64,000 nucleotides of DNA from Isurus oxyrinchus (taxonomy: Eukaryota), in the NCBI GenBank assembly GCA_026770705.1, contig JANJGN010000011.1, forward strand, positions 154,628,001-154,692,000. The letters run 5' to 3'. The position numbers are program-made. This document shows positions 51,001 through 57,000 of this stretch, piece by piece (the first letter of the stretch is position 1; each line of letters opens with the position of its first letter).

Positions 51001-54000
51001 TATACTGAGCAGTCCCACTGTAGTCAGATAATGTGAAGGGAATCAAAAGATATAGTAATATCCGTTGCTTGCCAGAGTACCTCAGCATATACCTTATTGT
51101 CAGTGTGCACATGTGTAAAATCCAGCTCTCTCAGTCAACTTTGCAGTGGCATGAAGCAGATTCTTGTGAATAACTTAGCTGGACAGCAAAGATATGCCAA
51201 CATCAGAGCAATGTTGACATATCCTCAATGAAGGGAAAATAATGAAGATACTGTTGCGCTAATAATACAGCCCAAATCTGCTCTAAGAAGCATTCAAAAC
51301 TTCAAATGATGAAAGCCTGTGATTAATGCTGTCTTGAATTTGTTATGACCAGATCAGTTACTTTATCTGGTTAATCAGGTAACCTCGGAAAACATAGGAT
51401 CTGATATATTTTGGGACCTGGTGAGGATGGTTGTGTTCTTAAAATTGAAGCCAGTTTAGAAAGCTTGGATTGTGGACACTGAAATGAAACAACTGGTTTA
51501 GTGAGTTGACTATCACTGGTAAAGGGTTGTCATCCTGAAGTGCTCACACCTCATCATGTGAGATCCCTCAGTCCTGTGCTCGCTGACTTGTAATGACCCC
51601 TGGTCCAGCAATGCCTCAATCTTAAGATTCTTATCCTTTGTTCAAATCCTTCCAGGGTCTTACTGCTCACTATCTCTGTAATCTTGTGTAGCCTTACAAC
51701 CCTTTGAGATCTCTTTGCTCCTCCAGTTCTGGCCTCTTGCACATCCCTAATTTTCAAGATGTCATCATTAACAAACATGTCTTCAGCTGCCAATGTCTTA
51801 AGCTCCAAGAATTCCCAATCTAAGCATTTCCACCTCTCTCTACCATTTGAAGATGCACCTTAAAACCTATCCCATTCCTGTCCTAATATCTGAAACAAAA
51901 ACAAAAAGTGCTGGAGAAACTCAGCAGGTCTGACAACATCTGTGGAGAGAAAGACGGAGTTAATGTTTCGAGTCCGTATGGCACTTTTTCAGAACAGGTC
52001 CCTGTCCTAATATCTCTTTGTGTGGCTTGGTGTCAAATATTGTTTGATGACTCTCCTGTGAATTGCTACAGTACAGTTTTCTATATTTGAAGTGCTGTAC
52101 AAACCAAGTTATTATGTTGAAAATTGTTAATGCAATCGAATTAGGTACTCGAACATAGAACCAAATTCAAATGGACTTTCTTTGGCTCCCATTGGCCTGG
52201 ATTTTGTGGTGGTAATGATAACAAATTGCCAGTGTTCCATTACTCCACTGAAACTGGCAGCAACTTGTGGAGTTGATACAGGTGTAGCATAACATGGAAA
52301 TCTAAAAGTTTCTGTCAGTAATTCTACACTTCTACAGAGGGTGCACTATTGAGGCACAACCAGACAGCAATCAGTGGACCTCAACTGAATTGAAGAGAAC
52401 TTCATCCTTACACAGTTAGCCTCACTGTAAAGACCCTTGACAAAGTTGCACCTTGTTGAATGAGGTTGTTAACAGTGTACTAATTTTGTAATTGCTACTG
52501 ACCACCGTCACAGGCCCTGGAAACATATTTTATATCAGTGGAACGTTGAAATCTCTACATAATGATATAAAAAAAAACCCTGCATTTTAAGCTCATTCAT
52601 TCACCTAAAAAAATATTTGTTTATCTTTATTTTAGCTTCTATCTTCATCCAGCCACAATCATTTATTTTGCTATCTGAAAAGATAAATTAAAAATGAAGG
52701 GCATTTTCTATGTTTAACTTCCTGATTTGCTGTGTTTGCACACTTCAATGTGATTGGCTGCTTACCTGCCTGATGACATCACTGCTGCTAGATGCCTGGA
52801 GATGATCCCATTGACTTGGTGCCAGATTTAAACTGACACTGGGAAAGGGGGAAATCCCCACCTCAGAGATTGCCAGATCTTTGTCTACAGTTGTTCTTAA
52901 GGTCAGCAACAAGTGCCCTTGTTTTGGTGCTGACCTTGGGTCCAAATATTAAAAACGATAGCCACCATATAAAACGCCGCTGCAAGTGATAATGGTTTGA
53001 TGCAGCAATTTTAAACATATGCAAGCACAAAGCTATCCTCAATTTATGTCATGGTGTACTGTGATATCATGACAAATGGGTTAATAAAGCACTCGTACTT
53101 ACATATCAGGAATCTGTACAATGTGCCCTTTGCAAAACAAGCTGCAAGATCAGAAAACAAAGCACTGATTGAAAACTCAATAAAAGAATTAAGAAAAATG
53201 TTATCCGTCCATTATTGTCTCCTGATTCTCACAGCAGCCTCATGCCACACCTGCGCAAGTGAATAAGATTAGACTTTATCCAGTGGGATTTTTTAAAAAA
53301 TAGTAAGCTCCTTGGGATCTTTTAACAAGTTGACGGCATTATATAGATGCAAGTTGTCGTTGCTTTTCTGTGATTGATATTCTTCCATCTGATATTTTCT
53401 GGACAGGAAACCAGAATATTATTGAATATCATATAATCATTAGGGGTTGGGGGAGGGGTGGGGGTTCAAGTTTCATCTGGAGCCTGTGTTTGAATTCAGC
53501 CTGAATTGGAGCTAAAGTGTCATAGTGACCTAGTAGAAGGCCATTCAGCCCATTCAGTTTATGCTGTCTCTCTATAGAGATTTGATAGATGGAGCGTGTT
53601 CTTTGCTCTGCCACTTACAAGGGCGTTAAGCATTGTTGCTTAGGAGATATTGATACAGTTCCTGCTTGCCTGAAGTTCATCAAGCAAAACTGCCCATAAA
53701 TTGGTGCTGAGTAACATTAGCTTGACAGTGCCATTCATAAGCCACAAGGATGACTGGTGTGGAAAATGCACGCAGTACTTCTGCCAGCAGCAAAATAAAT
53801 CATGCGTTCGGAGTTCAGCTGCAATAATTGACAATTACCACCTTAACTTCTGCAAGGAAGCCACTTGACCTTTGCAAATGATTTTTCTTTCCACTCCGCA
53901 CAGCCGGAAAACAGATGAAAATGGTGTCCACAGTAGCTAAACTGCGGAAGGTTAAATTCTCCACGTTGGCCATGCACATGCTTGTGAAACAATTCACAAG

Positions 54001-57000
54001 ATTACAAAGAGTAACCCTGGCCACGAAACCCAAAATGCCCACTAGTGAGGGTCACCGACGTGGCTGGAACCTCATTACTGAAAAAGTCAGCAACATTTCC
54101 AAAGTAGCTCGAACAGCCGAGGACTGTCGAAAGCGCATCAATGACCTGAGGCTTGGCGCTCGACAAAAAGTCGCTTTTGACAAACAGAGAGGTACAGTCC
54201 AACACACAGATGTGGCAAAAGAGAAAGTCCTAACATGGGAGGAAGAAAAAGTGGCCCCGGTAGTCCACCTTGTGGAACATGGACCTGATGCGTCCTCTGA
54301 CTCCAGTGATTCTGGTGAGTGTTGCATTGTTTTGTCAAACCCATCATTGCTTACCTCAGACATTGCAGTCTCAGCTATTACCATTATTGCAGTCTCAGCT
54401 ATTACCATTAAGCATGCAGTGCAATGATTATGTATGCAAGTCCTTCAAAGCCTATGTAAATGTCCTTGCTCTATCATGAATTGCCAGCTTTCTCATATTC
54501 AGCATTCTTGCAAAGCCTTATTGTGAACTAACCCTTCAGTTTATGCAGAGTCCATCGTCAATTAAACCAATGTCCTGTCTTTTTATCTTCCCAGATGAAT
54601 GTTGCACTTCAAAACTCTTGAGATCAGAACAACAGCAAACCACTGTGATCTTGGAGGAGGAGAAGGTATCAACCCAGCGTCAGGAACCTGGAGTGGCTAT
54701 GGAAGGTGCAGAGAGCGACAAGGTACAACAAGGTTCACGTGGGGAACGTAAAGAAGACTGTACAGGTGGGCAATGGAAAGCAGCATCTTATATGAAAGTG
54801 CCCTCCTCAGAGCAATTAGAGCAAAGAGAGTCACGTCAGCCAGAGGCAACTGGTGCTGTCAATGCCTCTTCTCTATCACACTCCCAAAATGCACATGGTG
54901 AGGAGCTTTGCCCCATATGTCGTAGGTTAGATACACTTGTGAGCACTGTGCAGCGTGGGTTCAACCACATACATAGGGACATAAATACATTGCAAAATGC
55001 TTCACAGTATCGTGGTGCCCGGCTGTCCCAGAATGTCATGTCTCTAGTTGGTGCAATGCACACACTTGTGAGACTCCATCATTTTTCCACCTTGCCACGC
55101 AGAGATGTGGCTATTCAGACCTCCATTATGCTGACTGAAAGGCATCTGGGAGAGAATGTTGGGGCAGCATCCAGTGACACCACAACTATATCGAGTGGCA
55201 ATGTAACTACACTCAGTGACACCCTACCTACATCCAGCAACATTGGAATGACATCCAGTGACACAGGAGTTTCATCCAGTGACACAGGGACTGCATCCAG
55301 TGACACAGTGATTGAAGTATCACTCGATCCTGATGGTGACTCTGCAGAGAGTATGTCCATTGAGGAGTCCTCTCAAAATTCTTCAGACAGTGATTGGTAA
55401 AGTCAGTAAAAAAAAATTCAAATATACATGGAGTTGACTGTTTGAATTTAACTATTTAAGCTTCCTTACAATTAGATTTAAAGTTATATATTTGACTTAG
55501 TAGATCTACTAATTTATACAGTAGCCCATTAGCTTAAAATAGCTAAAACACTGCATGCGAGTATTTACCATGGGTATTAATGTAGGATTAGCAGTTTTGT
55601 AATGAATTCAATGTCATTTAAAATGCATGTAATCTAAAATCCAAACACTCTCGTCACCTATCTGTCTTGTTTGGAATTCTTTGTAAATTTTTTCCACTTC
55701 CATAATTATTAATGTCGTTTGCAATAAAACAAAAAAATACATTATCCATCTTCTATCATGATCTGTGTTGTTTTGTTGTTTGCAATGGAGGTTTTGTACT
55801 TTTTTTTCATATTTCATAGCTACCTGTGTTGTGTGTAATAAACATTTTATATCAGTCATTCTTTGTCCCGTGTCTGCTTTTCATGCCCATGTTGCTTCTC
55901 CCTTGCTTTTCCATTTTGTCTAAATTTTACACATGAGCCCCTACTTGGCAGAGCAGCCTGAGGTATCAAGAATTATCTGTCTCATGTGGTTGTCTTTCAT
56001 CCTATGCCGCGTGGTTCATTTATGTTATTACTGAAGCGTGAAGTTTGGATTTCATCATCTCACAGATGCATTATTTTCCATGATCATAAGTTTGCAGAGG
56101 CCTGTTTTAAAATAATGCTATTCTATACTGTGCATAACAAAGTAGCATCAACATGGTTTAAGTTAAGACATTTCAGACCTCATCGACTGATTTGTTGGAT
56201 AAATATATATAAAATATGAAATTTATAAGCAAAAGTATTTCTTTCTTCTTGGTTGCAAGCAATATGTTTTTAAATCTCCTCTATATGGATTTAATGTCCC
56301 AGTTGTTATTATTGGACTAATGAGTCTTCCATTATCCTCCTAAACAAGACTTATCAAGTGAGCGCACAGAATTTGGCTTAAATTAGGAGTTCCATATGTT
56401 GGGTACAGTTTATCCCCAGCAAATTTATAGCAGGATTTAAAATATATATATAATTTAGAAAAAAAACTCATTCTGTAAGCTACATCGCCTTTCCATTCCG
56501 AGAAACATGTTATAAGCTGTTACCATCAGCTGTTGAACAGAGCTGCCTGAGTTCATTTCAATATGCAAGGTTTGATTTCCTCATACATTTTTGGCCTCCA
56601 TATTACAAAACAGATGTAGAGTTACTAAAGGAGGTGAAAAAAAAGATATTTAGGAATGATAACAGAACAATCAATAAAGACTCAACAGGCTGAGGCTCTC
56701 TTCTCTCGAAATGAGAGGGCTCAGGGATGACCTAATAGAGTTCTTTATAATTAGGAAGGGTTTCGATAGCGTTGATGTGGAGAAGATTTTTCTGCTCGTG
56801 AGATGCCCATAATTCAAGGTCATGAATATAAGATGGTCACTAATACATCAAATAGGGAATTCAGGAGAAACTTCCTGACCCAGAGAGTGGGGAGTATGTG
56901 CCACATTCTGACACATGGAGTAGGTGAGGTGAAGGGAAGGGGAAGGGGAAGGTAGATAAGTGCATGAGGAAGAAAGGGGTGGATAAGGTGAGAGGAGACT

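What the first reader, a model, noticed from the sequence alone, without database searches (positions are those of the whole stretch)
53904..55842. Intact spliced Harbinger-type Myb/SANT gene nested in a PCDH9 intron: candidate domesticated transposon gene
Seen: two ORF-track entries join through a canonical GT-AG phase-1 intron into one 401-aa stop-free CDS with an N-terminal Myb/SANT-like domain, followed by an AU-rich UTR with two AATAAA. No DDE transposase ORF and no convincing TIRs flank it, while most neighbouring repeats are decayed. Known: Harbinger/PIF transposons encode a Myb/SANT-like partner protein, and NAIF1 and the MSANTD genes derive from such proteins. I do not recognise this protein as any named vertebrate member or as a PCDH9-nested gene. 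Inference: a cartilaginous-fish-specific domesticated DNA-binding gene hosted in PCDH9.
Basis: partly seen in the sequence, partly recalled or inferred. Interest (0 to 1): 0.85.

Follow-up and report, generated by a model that had tools for sequence, protein, structure and literature searches.

The report
Intact shark Myb/SANT gene in protocadherin intron
A small, intact two-exon gene for a Myb/SANT-type DNA-binding protein sits downstream of a protocadherin exon in a shark-like genome and has a close counterpart in the sevengill shark, so it is probably a real lineage-restricted gene of a known transposon-derived kind, not a new kind of thing.

Summary
Exon 1 (53915-54314) and exon 2 (54595-55400) are each stop-free. 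They are separated by a GT-AG phase-1 intron of 280 nt and add up to 401 codons plus a stop. Exon 1 carries a Pfam Myb_DNA-bind_5 domain (29.2 bits, cut-off 21.7).

I found no transposase, no terminal inverted repeats above chance and no second copy in the window. An annotated 391-aa "uncharacterized protein" of Heptranchias perlo matches both exons at 80-85% identity and crosses the same splice junction. The only other close relative is a small cluster of unspliced ORFs that look degenerate.

Evidence for constraint is indirect:
- A 75-residue block in exon 2 is invariant (0 of 200,000 shuffles match this run).
- Substitution-only neutral drift would keep both exons open about 3% of the time.
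- The replacements are more conservative than neutral simulation.

A delta1-protocadherin-type exon (RRVTF motif) lies 33.5 kb upstream on the same strand. Nesting is therefore plausible, but PCDH9 identity is untested. Harbinger origin, synteny, copy number, dN/dS and expression could not be tested.

Verdict: a new member of a known kind, of modest interest. All searches were run exon by exon, and the joined protein was never assembled.

The parts
20152..20353 (+). Context: an internal coding exon of a delta1-protocadherin-type host gene (202 nt). It encodes the RRVTF (CM3, PP1-binding) motif and its donor is in phase 1.
   Evidence: Found by a motif scan of the six frames. The acceptor ...ttctttctag| and the donor |gtgagt were read, and the length and frame come. 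The meaning of the motif comes from passages of bioRxiv 10.1101/2021.09.21.460794. Assignment to PCDH9 itself was not tested.
53881..53903 (+). Acceptor-like site (pyrimidine tract plus CAG) ending 11 nt before the first ATG. The frame is open from 53882. A phase-1 splice into 53904 would be in frame with the Myb ORF.
   Evidence: One search shows 16 of 20 pyrimidines before the CAG. There are 185 comparable sites on the + strand, about one per 346 nt. Whether the site is used is not shown.
53915..54314 (+). Coding exon 1 (133 codons plus 1 nt). The first ATG is at 53915. The second ATG, at 53921, lines up with the start of the Heptranchias protein.
   Evidence: In the ungapped comparison from the second ATG, 111 of 131 residues are identical to P0003.
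53945..54175 (+). Myb/SANT-like trihelix DNA-binding domain (Pfam Myb_DNA-bind_5), exon-1 residues 11-87.
   Evidence: E 9.2e-7, 29.2 bits, cut-off 21.7. The alignment with 13 relatives keeps F15, S16, L23, W51, R66, C71, K73, R74 and D77.
54315..54594 (+). Phase-1 GT-AG intron of 280 nt. It contains an exact 24-nt tandem duplication at 54362-54410.
   Evidence: The junction is matched by the annotated Heptranchias protein. The intron is still alignable with the read-through tail of P0004.
54595..55400 (+). Coding exon 2 (2 nt plus 267 codons plus TAA). It encodes an acidic linker, an invariant block, a Ser/Thr/Asp repeat and an acidic tail.
   Evidence: Of 267 alignment columns, 215 are identical to P0003. 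There is no Pfam family and no PDB match.
54903..55127 (+). A 75-residue block (exon-2 residues 103-177) that is identical in the Heptranchias protein. It contains a CxxC motif and several His. It is the candidate partner-binding or effector module.
   Evidence: the longest identical run is 75, and 0 of 200,000 column shuffles reach it; block 75 of 75 identical, against 74 of 102 in the linker before it.
55167..55308 (+). Degenerate 21-nt (7-residue) tandem repeat, 6.8 copies, rich in Ser, Thr and Asp.
   Evidence: The Heptranchias protein has a more regular version and differs by a 7-residue indel here.
55401..55860 (+). Putative AT-rich 3' UTR with AATAAA at 55723-55728 and 55837-55842.
   Evidence: Use of these sites as poly(A) signals is not shown.

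Best explanation
This is a real, single-copy-in-window protein-coding gene with two coding exons. It encodes a protein of 399-401 aa.

The protein has four parts:
- an N-terminal Myb/SANT-like trihelix domain (Myb_DNA-bind_5), which most likely binds DNA;
- an acidic, fast-evolving linker;
- a strictly conserved 75-residue block, which I infer to be the module that contacts a partner protein or self-associates;
- a Ser/Thr/Asp-rich acidic tail.

The gene lies 33.5 kb downstream of a delta1-protocadherin-type exon on the same strand, so it is most probably inside an intron of that gene.

Its likely history is that of NAIF1 and the MSANTD genes: a Myb-like gene from a DNA transposon, or a duplicate of such a gene, that lost all mobility features and was kept in one shark lineage. 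It is kept in at least two species, the window's own and Heptranchias perlo.

Shown:
- the gene structure and the Myb domain;
- the absence of transposon features in the window;
- the counterpart with the same splice junction;
- the uneven conservation along exon 2.

Inferred:
- DNA binding and the role of the C-terminal block;
- the transposon origin;
- nesting in the host gene;
- purifying selection.
For: Gene model and domain:
- Gene structure.
- Pfam domain above its cut-off.

Counterpart in another shark:
- XP_067841604.1 of Heptranchias perlo (P0003, 391 aa) was the only hit among 744 candidates for exon 2.
- Identity is 111 of 131 residues in exon 1 and 215 of 267 columns in exon 2.
- The protein runs across the same exon junction.

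Rarity:
- The exhaustive search of 1.84 billion representatives with exon 1 gave 18 hits at E<=1e-3 and only 1 below 1e-30.
- The word-indexed searches gave 1 cluster for exon 1.
- They gave 0 of 37 short candidates for exon 2.

No transposon features:
- No transposase ORF.
- No TIRs above chance.
- No second copy of 52000-56700 in the window.

Indirect evidence of constraint:
- A 75-residue invariant run, reached by 0 of 200,000 shuffles.
- Under substitution-only neutral drift to the observed identity, exon 1 stays open in 1081 of 3000 runs and exon 2 in 267 of 3000. The joint probability is about 3%.
- The only indels are 1 and 7 residues, both in frame.
- Mismatches are more conservative than in neutral simulation: mean BLOSUM62 -0.06 against -0.45 (sd 0.21), with 33 of 1000 simulations reaching the observed value.
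- Exon 1 CpG o/e is 0.60, against a window median of 0.27 and a 95th percentile of 0.56.

Host gene:
- The host exon and its strand.

Family context:
- The Atlas leads obtained for P0003 are all Myb_DNA-bind_5 clusters (MYPOP, TSNARE1, MSANTD4, NAIF1). All scored below 0.9, so they are leads only.
- PMC9392472 (sections 5, 8 and 14 read) describes NAIF1 and MSANTD1-4 as Harbinger Myb-like derivatives.
Against: - No dN/dS could be computed, because no DNA of any relative was available.
- Within exon 1 the differences from P0003 are spread evenly. The longest identical run is 20, which 100,090 of 200,000 shuffles reach. By my own count from the list, the Myb domain itself is no better conserved than its flanks (13 of 77 against 7 of 54 differing positions).
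- The domain scores weakly: 29.2 bits here and 24.6 bits in P0003, against total PF13873 scores of 45-242 bits in the other 18 relatives, many of which carry 2-6 copies of the domain.
- The second relative, P0004, looks unconstrained.
  - It has 29 unique changes in 131 residues, including loss of the conserved Trp.
  - It has no Pfam hit.
  - No exon-2 ORF from that source was found.
  - Its exon-1 identity to the window (86 of 131, 66%) is no higher than the identity of its intron read-through (32 of 45, 71%).
- There is no CpG island upstream.
- The ORF-retention and BLOSUM tests are only at about the 3% level. They ignore CpG hypermutability and indels.
- The invariant block could reflect constraint at the DNA level.
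- Harbinger ancestry is not shown. None of 21 relatives carries DDE_Tnp_4, and several are host-type factors with KRAB or C2H2 domains.
- Orthology with P0003, as opposed to paralogy, is unresolved.
Confidence: 0.55

Rival explanations
1. The gene is a leftover copy of a DNA transposon's Myb-like gene, from a Harbinger or another element. It has not yet decayed and does nothing for the host. Its relatives are other copies, not orthologues.
For: - P0004 behaves like a neutrally evolving copy. Its exon identity is 66% against 71% for the intron read-through, the Trp is lost, and it has no Pfam hit.
- The Myb score is weak.
- Differences in exon 1 are spread evenly.
- Relatives in Pleurodeles occur as members at least 90% identical on four different chromosome-sized contigs. 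That genome is reported to carry a large Harbinger-with-Myb expansion (PMC5741667, passages).
Against: - There are no TIRs, no transposase and no second copy in the window.
- Only one annotated protein and one three-member ORF cluster are close relatives among the collections searched.
- Both exons stay open at 80-85% identity, with a joint neutral expectation of about 3%.
- A 75-residue block is invariant.
- Harbinger elements were reported as not detected in the elephant shark (PMC9179366, passages).
Confidence: 0.15
2. The gene is functional but is not a fresh transposon domestication. It is a lineage-specific duplicate of an existing host family of Myb_DNA-bind_5 transcription factors (MYPOP-like, KRAB-Myb and similar), with a new C-terminal half.
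For: - All 17 distant relatives (P0005-P0021, E 1.8e-13 to 8.4e-4) are annotated or predicted host-type proteins of sawshark, salamanders, frogs, sturgeon, eel and molluscs.
- Among the 21 proteins scanned, some carry KRAB or C2H2 domains and none carries DDE_Tnp_4.
Against: - Identity to these proteins is only 27-35% and is confined to the Myb domain.
- Exon 2 has no significant match to any of the four tested.
- The family as a whole is held to descend from Harbinger Myb-like genes (PMC9392472, section 5), so the two origins are hard to separate.
Confidence: 0.2
3. The two exons are, at least in part, an alternative 3' cassette of the protocadherin gene. Splicing from the phase-1 donor at 20353 into the acceptor-like site at 53903|53904 would fuse the protocadherin cytoplasmic tail in frame to the Myb protein. 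That would make it a host-transposon fusion.
For: - The host exon and the Myb gene are on the same strand.
- The host donor is in phase 1.
- The acceptor-like site lies 11 nt upstream of the ATG, with an open frame between them and a matching phase.
- Cosby et al. [quoted passage not shown]
Against: - The coincidence is post hoc and weak. Acceptor-like sites occur about once per 346 nt, and the phase matches one time in three, giving roughly 3% by chance.
- The Heptranchias model starts at the Met that corresponds to 53921 and is annotated as a stand-alone protein.
- No transcript data were available.
Confidence: 0.07

Closest known systems
XP_067841604.1, uncharacterized protein of Heptranchias perlo (P0003)
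   Same: The architecture, the length class (391 against 399-401 aa) and the position of the exon junction are the same. Identity is 85% in exon 1 and 81-83% in exon 2, and the 75-residue block is identical.
   Different: It comes from a different species or locus, and orthology and synteny were not tested. It differs by a 1-residue and a 7-residue indel in the repeat region. It is a computed RefSeq model with no described function.
[quoted passage not shown]
   Same: Each has a single N-terminal Myb/SANT-like trihelix domain followed by non-domain sequence. The Pfam family assignment of these genes is recalled, supported only by the cluster labels. Each is a spliced gene without transposon termini (PMC9392472, section 5).
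   Different: Those genes are ancient (from the base of jawed vertebrates or of sarcopterygians), syntenic across classes and under measured purifying selection. None of them appeared among the 18 hits of the exhaustive search. This gene was seen only in a few shark sources, and selection on it was not measured.
MYPOP (p42POP), Myb-related transcription factor
   Same: Two distant hits are named MYPOP-like, and the first row of the Atlas structure search for P0003 is a MYPOP cluster, at TM 0.32, which is a lead only. In MYPOP the N-terminal DNA-binding domain is sufficient for repression (PMC6265261, passages).
   Different: Identity is only about 25-30% and lies within the Myb domain. There is no detectable similarity in the C-terminal half. 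A dimerising zipper in MYPOP is something I recall and did not verify here.
Myb-like (second ORF) protein of autonomous PIF/Harbinger transposons
   Same: It is a trihelix protein that binds DNA and a partner protein, the transposase (PMC9179366, passages). It shares the same broad domain family.
   Different: The defining context is absent here: no transposase ORF, no TIRs of 25-50 bp and no 3-bp target-site duplication. No direct comparison with a transposon library was possible.
Host-transposase fusion genes (KRABINER type)
   Same: The gene is a transposon-type DNA-binding module lying in sense orientation in a host intron, with an acceptor-like site just upstream of its ORF and a compatible phase.
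   Different: No fusion transcript is shown. The captured module would be the Myb-like accessory protein rather than a transposase, and the host would be a membrane protein rather than a KRAB factor.

Membership tests
Pfam PF13873 Myb_DNA-bind_5 (Myb/SANT-like trihelix) | A profile match above the curated gathering score. | tested here: met
   29.2 bits against 21.7, covering profile positions 1-77 of 78. The unspliced ORF gives 28.1 bits.
Pfam PF13873 Myb_DNA-bind_5 (Myb/SANT-like trihelix) | Conserved bulky hydrophobic or aromatic core residues in the three helices. | tested here: inconclusive
   F15 and W51 are kept. At the position where many relatives have Trp (K-R-W-x-D) the window and P0003 have Ile. 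No structure model could be made.
Domesticated Harbinger Myb-like gene (NAIF1/MSANTD kind) | Closest relatives include Myb-like ORFs of bona fide Harbinger elements. | not testable with these tools
   No transposon library and no eukaryotic genome collection were available. None of 21 relatives carries DDE_Tnp_4.
Domesticated Harbinger Myb-like gene (NAIF1/MSANTD kind) | Loss of mobility features (TIRs, target-site duplication, linked transposase). | tested here: met
   This covers the 64-kb window only.
Domesticated Harbinger Myb-like gene (NAIF1/MSANTD kind) | A single copy at a syntenic position in several species. | not testable with these tools
   The evidence is at the protein level only: one annotated counterpart and one ORF cluster. 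No genomic context is available for either.
Domesticated Harbinger Myb-like gene (NAIF1/MSANTD kind) | Purifying selection (dN/dS below 1). | tested here: inconclusive
   Indirect tests favour constraint between the window and P0003. The comparison with P0004 looks neutral. No codon-level test was possible.
Domesticated Harbinger Myb-like gene (NAIF1/MSANTD kind) | Transcription and correct splicing. | not testable with these tools
   The only support is the agreement of the junction with a RefSeq model from another species.
Autonomous or relic PIF/Harbinger transposon | A DDE transposase ORF, TIRs of 25-50 bp and a 3-bp target-site duplication. | tested here: not met
   The defining features are taken from PMC9179366 (passages).
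Gene nested in PCDH9 | Host exons of PCDH9 flank the gene on both sides. | tested here: inconclusive
   One delta1-protocadherin-type exon with a donor lies upstream on the same strand. No downstream host exon was recognised in 56000-64000 by eye. No cadherin Pfam domain occurs in the window. The paralogue was not assigned.

The most novel reading that the evidence does not exclude
A Myb-like gene of transposon type landed in sense orientation in the intron after the CM3 exon of a delta1-protocadherin. It is now spliced in frame onto the protocadherin's cytoplasmic tail, through the phase-1 donor at 20353 and the acceptor at 53903. This would give sharks a membrane-anchored adhesion receptor whose tail, possibly releasable, carries a DNA-binding domain. 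The stand-alone protein would be a second product of the same locus.
Probability: 0.06. Interest if true: 0.75.

Novelty: new member of a known kind. Interest (0 to 1): 0.33.

Why it matters
If the gene is confirmed as syntenic and constrained, it would be a young, lineage-restricted addition to the set of vertebrate genes built from transposon Myb-like proteins. All members of that set described so far are ancient (PMC9392472).

It would also show that cartilaginous fish carried, or still carry, elements of this type. The one survey I found did not detect Harbinger elements in the elephant shark and called for more species to be examined (PMC9179366).

The invariant 75-residue block has no detectable relatives. 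It is a concrete handle for finding what such proteins recruit.

The location inside a neuronal adhesion gene, with an in-frame acceptor, makes the locus a cheap test case for the early steps of exon capture.

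Tried and rejected
Steps that gave nothing or could not be run:
- Structure prediction of either exon was not accepted on four tries. The fold of the Myb domain and of the invariant block is therefore unchecked.
- The complex predictor was unavailable, so self-association of the block is untested.
- The Atlas did not hold exon 2. I used the stored Heptranchias protein instead and got only sub-threshold leads.
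- Exon 2 has no Pfam family (the best is IHABP4_N at E 0.072).
- Exon 2 has no PDB match.
- Exon 2 has no significant similarity to the C-terminal parts of four distant relatives (best E 0.39).
- Exon 1 against PDB sequences gave only an EP400 SANT stretch at E 0.81.
- Rfam and tRNA scans of the window found nothing.
- The bacterial promoter and terminator scan is irrelevant to a vertebrate gene, and I ignore it.

Ideas rejected:
- I considered that the invariant block is a second, degenerate Myb repeat. Two weak and mutually inconsistent alignments and the lack of any Pfam hit argue against it.
- I rejected the unspliced reading, a 170-181 aa ORF ending at 54427. The annotated relative crosses the junction, and exon 2 is the longest open frame in the window.

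Literature searches that led nowhere:
- 0 papers for PCDH9 + nested gene + intron.
- 1 paper for Harbinger + Myb-like + shark.
- 4 papers hold Harbinger + elasmobranch + transposon (3 listed); judged from the listing alone, none appears to describe such a gene.
- Sinzelle et al. 2008 is not held.
- A find in PMC13187161 returned no passages.

Collections and files not checked:
- Genome contigs holds only bacteria and archaea and was not used.
- Supplementary tables of PMC9392472 (dN/dS values) could not be seen.

Full report
**What is there.**
- The + strand between 53915 and 55400 holds two stop-free coding segments.
- Exon 1 runs from the ATG at 53915 to 54314, which is 400 nt. A second in-frame ATG lies at 53921.
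- The intron is 280 nt (54315-54594). It starts GTGAGT and ends with a long pyrimidine tract and CAG.
- Exon 2 runs from 54595 to the TAA at 55398-55400, which is 806 nt.
- The lengths sum to 401 codons plus a stop. The intron is phase 1.
- I verified this by arithmetic and by translating each exon alone. I never assembled, searched or folded the joined protein, and every search below was made exon by exon.
- The 306-codon open frame that contains exon 2 is the longest in the window. None of 200 first-order Markov windows reached it (maximum 279).

**The protein.**
- Exon 1 matches Pfam Myb_DNA-bind_5 above the curated cut-off (29.2 against 21.7 bits, residues 11-87).
- In an alignment with 13 relatives the window keeps all nine invariant or nearly invariant positions. 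At the site where many relatives carry a third Trp it has Ile.
- Exon 2 has no Pfam family and no PDB match.
- Exon 2 consists of an acidic linker, a 75-residue block with a CxxC motif and several His, a degenerate 7-residue Ser/Thr/Asp repeat (a 21-nt repeat, 6.8 copies) and an acidic tail.

**Transposon hallmarks.**
- I scanned all 290 stop-to-stop ORFs of at least 60 aa in the window. Only a LINE reverse-transcriptase fragment (22111-22602, - strand) and this Myb domain pass Pfam cut-offs.
- I also scanned 96 ORFs of 38-59 aa between 48500 and 61000, out of 576 such ORFs in the whole window. They gave nothing.
- Inverted matches between the flanks are at chance level: 24.3 bits, against a mean of 23.8 and a maximum of 26.3 in 30 shuffles.
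- The block 52000-56700 has no second copy in the window, although repeats on either side of it do.

**Relatives.**
- Exon 2 found one protein among 744 candidates. It is P0003, XP_067841604.1, a 391-aa 'uncharacterized protein' of the sharpnose sevengill shark Heptranchias perlo.
- P0003 matches exon 1 at 111 of 131 residues and exon 2 at 215 of 267 columns.
- P0003 starts at the Met that corresponds to 53921 and runs across exactly the proposed junction. This independently supports the splice model.
- The exhaustive search of 1.84 billion representatives with exon 1 gave 18 hits at E<=1e-3, 3 below 1e-10 and 1 below 1e-30.
- That one close hit, P0004, is a 188-aa ORF from an unnamed assembly and belongs to a three-member cluster. 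It reads through the donor into the intron, so it is an unspliced ORF.
- A search for short fragments of exon 2 found none among 37 candidates.
- The other 17 hits (25-35% identity, Myb domain only) are annotated or predicted proteins of a sawshark, salamanders, frogs, a sturgeon, an eel and molluscs. Two are named MYPOP-like.
- I scanned 21 relatives against Pfam. Twenty carry Myb_DNA-bind_5, some carry KRAB or C2H2 domains, one carries a hAT dimerisation domain, and none carries a Harbinger transposase domain.

**Is it constrained?**
No DNA of any relative was available, so dN/dS could not be computed. The indirect tests point in two directions.

For constraint:
- The differences from P0003 in exon 2 are strongly uneven. 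Residues 103-177 are identical (75 of 75), while the linker before them is 74 of 102 identical. No column shuffle out of 200,000 gives a run of 75.
- Substitution-only neutral drift to the observed identity leaves exon 1 open in 1081 of 3000 runs and exon 2 in 267 of 3000. The joint probability is about 3%.
- The only indels are in frame.
- The replacements are milder than in neutral simulation, with 33 of 1000 simulations reaching the observed mean.
- Exon 1 keeps unusually many CpGs.

Against constraint:
- Exon 1 shows no unevenness.
- The Myb score is low compared with those of the other relatives.
- P0004 looks like a decaying copy. It has 29 private changes in 131 residues, including the conserved Trp. 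It has no Pfam hit. Its exon identity to the window (66%) is no higher than that of its intron read-through (32 of 45, 71%).

My reading is that the gene is maintained in the window's species and in Heptranchias and was lost in the source of P0004. A DNA-level cause for the invariant block cannot be excluded.

**Host gene.**
- No cadherin domain occurs in the window.
- A scan for the short RRVTF motif, recalled from memory as the CM3 motif of delta1 protocadherins, found it in an ORF at 20152-20358.
- Passages of bioRxiv 10.1101/2021.09.21.460794 give RRVTF as the PP1-alpha motif of the long PCDH7 isoforms.
- The DNA shows a clean acceptor and a GTGAGT donor, defining a 202-nt internal exon on the + strand with a phase-1 donor.
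- The Myb gene lies 33.5 kb downstream on the same strand. I saw no further host exon in 56000-64000 by eye.
- Nesting in a protocadherin intron is therefore plausible. That the host is PCDH9 rather than a paralogue stayed unchecked.

**A curiosity.**
- The acceptor-like site ending at 53903 lies 11 nt before the ATG. The frame between them is open, and a splice from the host's phase-1 donor would be in frame.
- Cosby et al. report that captured transposase exons usually use an acceptor just upstream of the transposase ORF (passages).
- Such sites occur once per 346 nt and the phase matches one time in three.
- I keep this only as the most novel reading, with low probability.

**Comparison with the known, and verdict.**
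- In architecture the protein works like the Myb-like accessory proteins of Harbinger elements and their domesticated descendants, NAIF1 and MSANTD1-4. These bind DNA and a partner protein (PMC9392472, sections 5 and 14; PMC9179366, passages).
- Membership in the Pfam family is met.
- Membership in the 'domesticated Harbinger gene' class is met for loss of mobility features. It is inconclusive for selection. It is untestable here for transposon ancestry, synteny and expression.
- The gene is already present as a computed model in a related shark. It belongs to a known kind. I found no paper describing it.
- It is a sound candidate for a young domesticated gene, of moderate interest.

Noticed in passing
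window 20152-20353 (+): An internal exon of a delta1-protocadherin-type gene. It encodes the RRVTF motif, has strong splice sites and is rich in CpG. It fixes the host gene's strand as + and its donor as phase 1.
   Followed up: partly
window 53881-53903 (+): An acceptor-like site 11 nt upstream of the Myb ATG. It is in frame with the phase-1 donor of the protocadherin exon 33.5 kb upstream. It could be a 5' UTR splice site or a route to a fusion transcript.
   Followed up: partly
window 21616-22602 (-): A LINE reverse-transcriptase fragment split over two adjacent ORFs (RVT_1, 47.8 bits). It is flanked by low-complexity ORFs at 22612-23244.
   Followed up: no
window 57168-57674 (-): A 168-aa open frame with no Pfam hit. 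From recall, it reads like the region after the reverse-transcriptase domain of a non-LTR retrotransposon. It lies just downstream of the gene on the other strand.
   Followed up: no
window 54362-54410 (+): An exact 24-nt tandem duplication inside the intron. It coincides roughly with an 11-residue gap in the alignment with the read-through tail of P0004, so it may be a recent change in the window's lineage.
   Followed up: partly
window 49051-49950, 62201-62600, 7501-8350 and 2601-3050: These are the segments with the densest CpG in an otherwise CpG-poor window (13-19 CpG per 200 nt at peak). Some overlap proline-rich ORFs on the - strand that recur at 3506-4793 and 7613-8314. They may be young repeats.
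   Followed up: no
window 36383-36812: A long imperfect CA/TG-rich low-complexity tract that gives spurious open frames of more than 120 aa on both strands.
   Followed up: no
P0017, P0028, P0029 and P0030 (Pleurodeles waltl): Four Myb_DNA-bind_5 proteins at least 90% identical to each other, encoded on four different chromosome-sized contigs. This fits the Harbinger-with-Myb expansion reported for that newt.
   Followed up: partly
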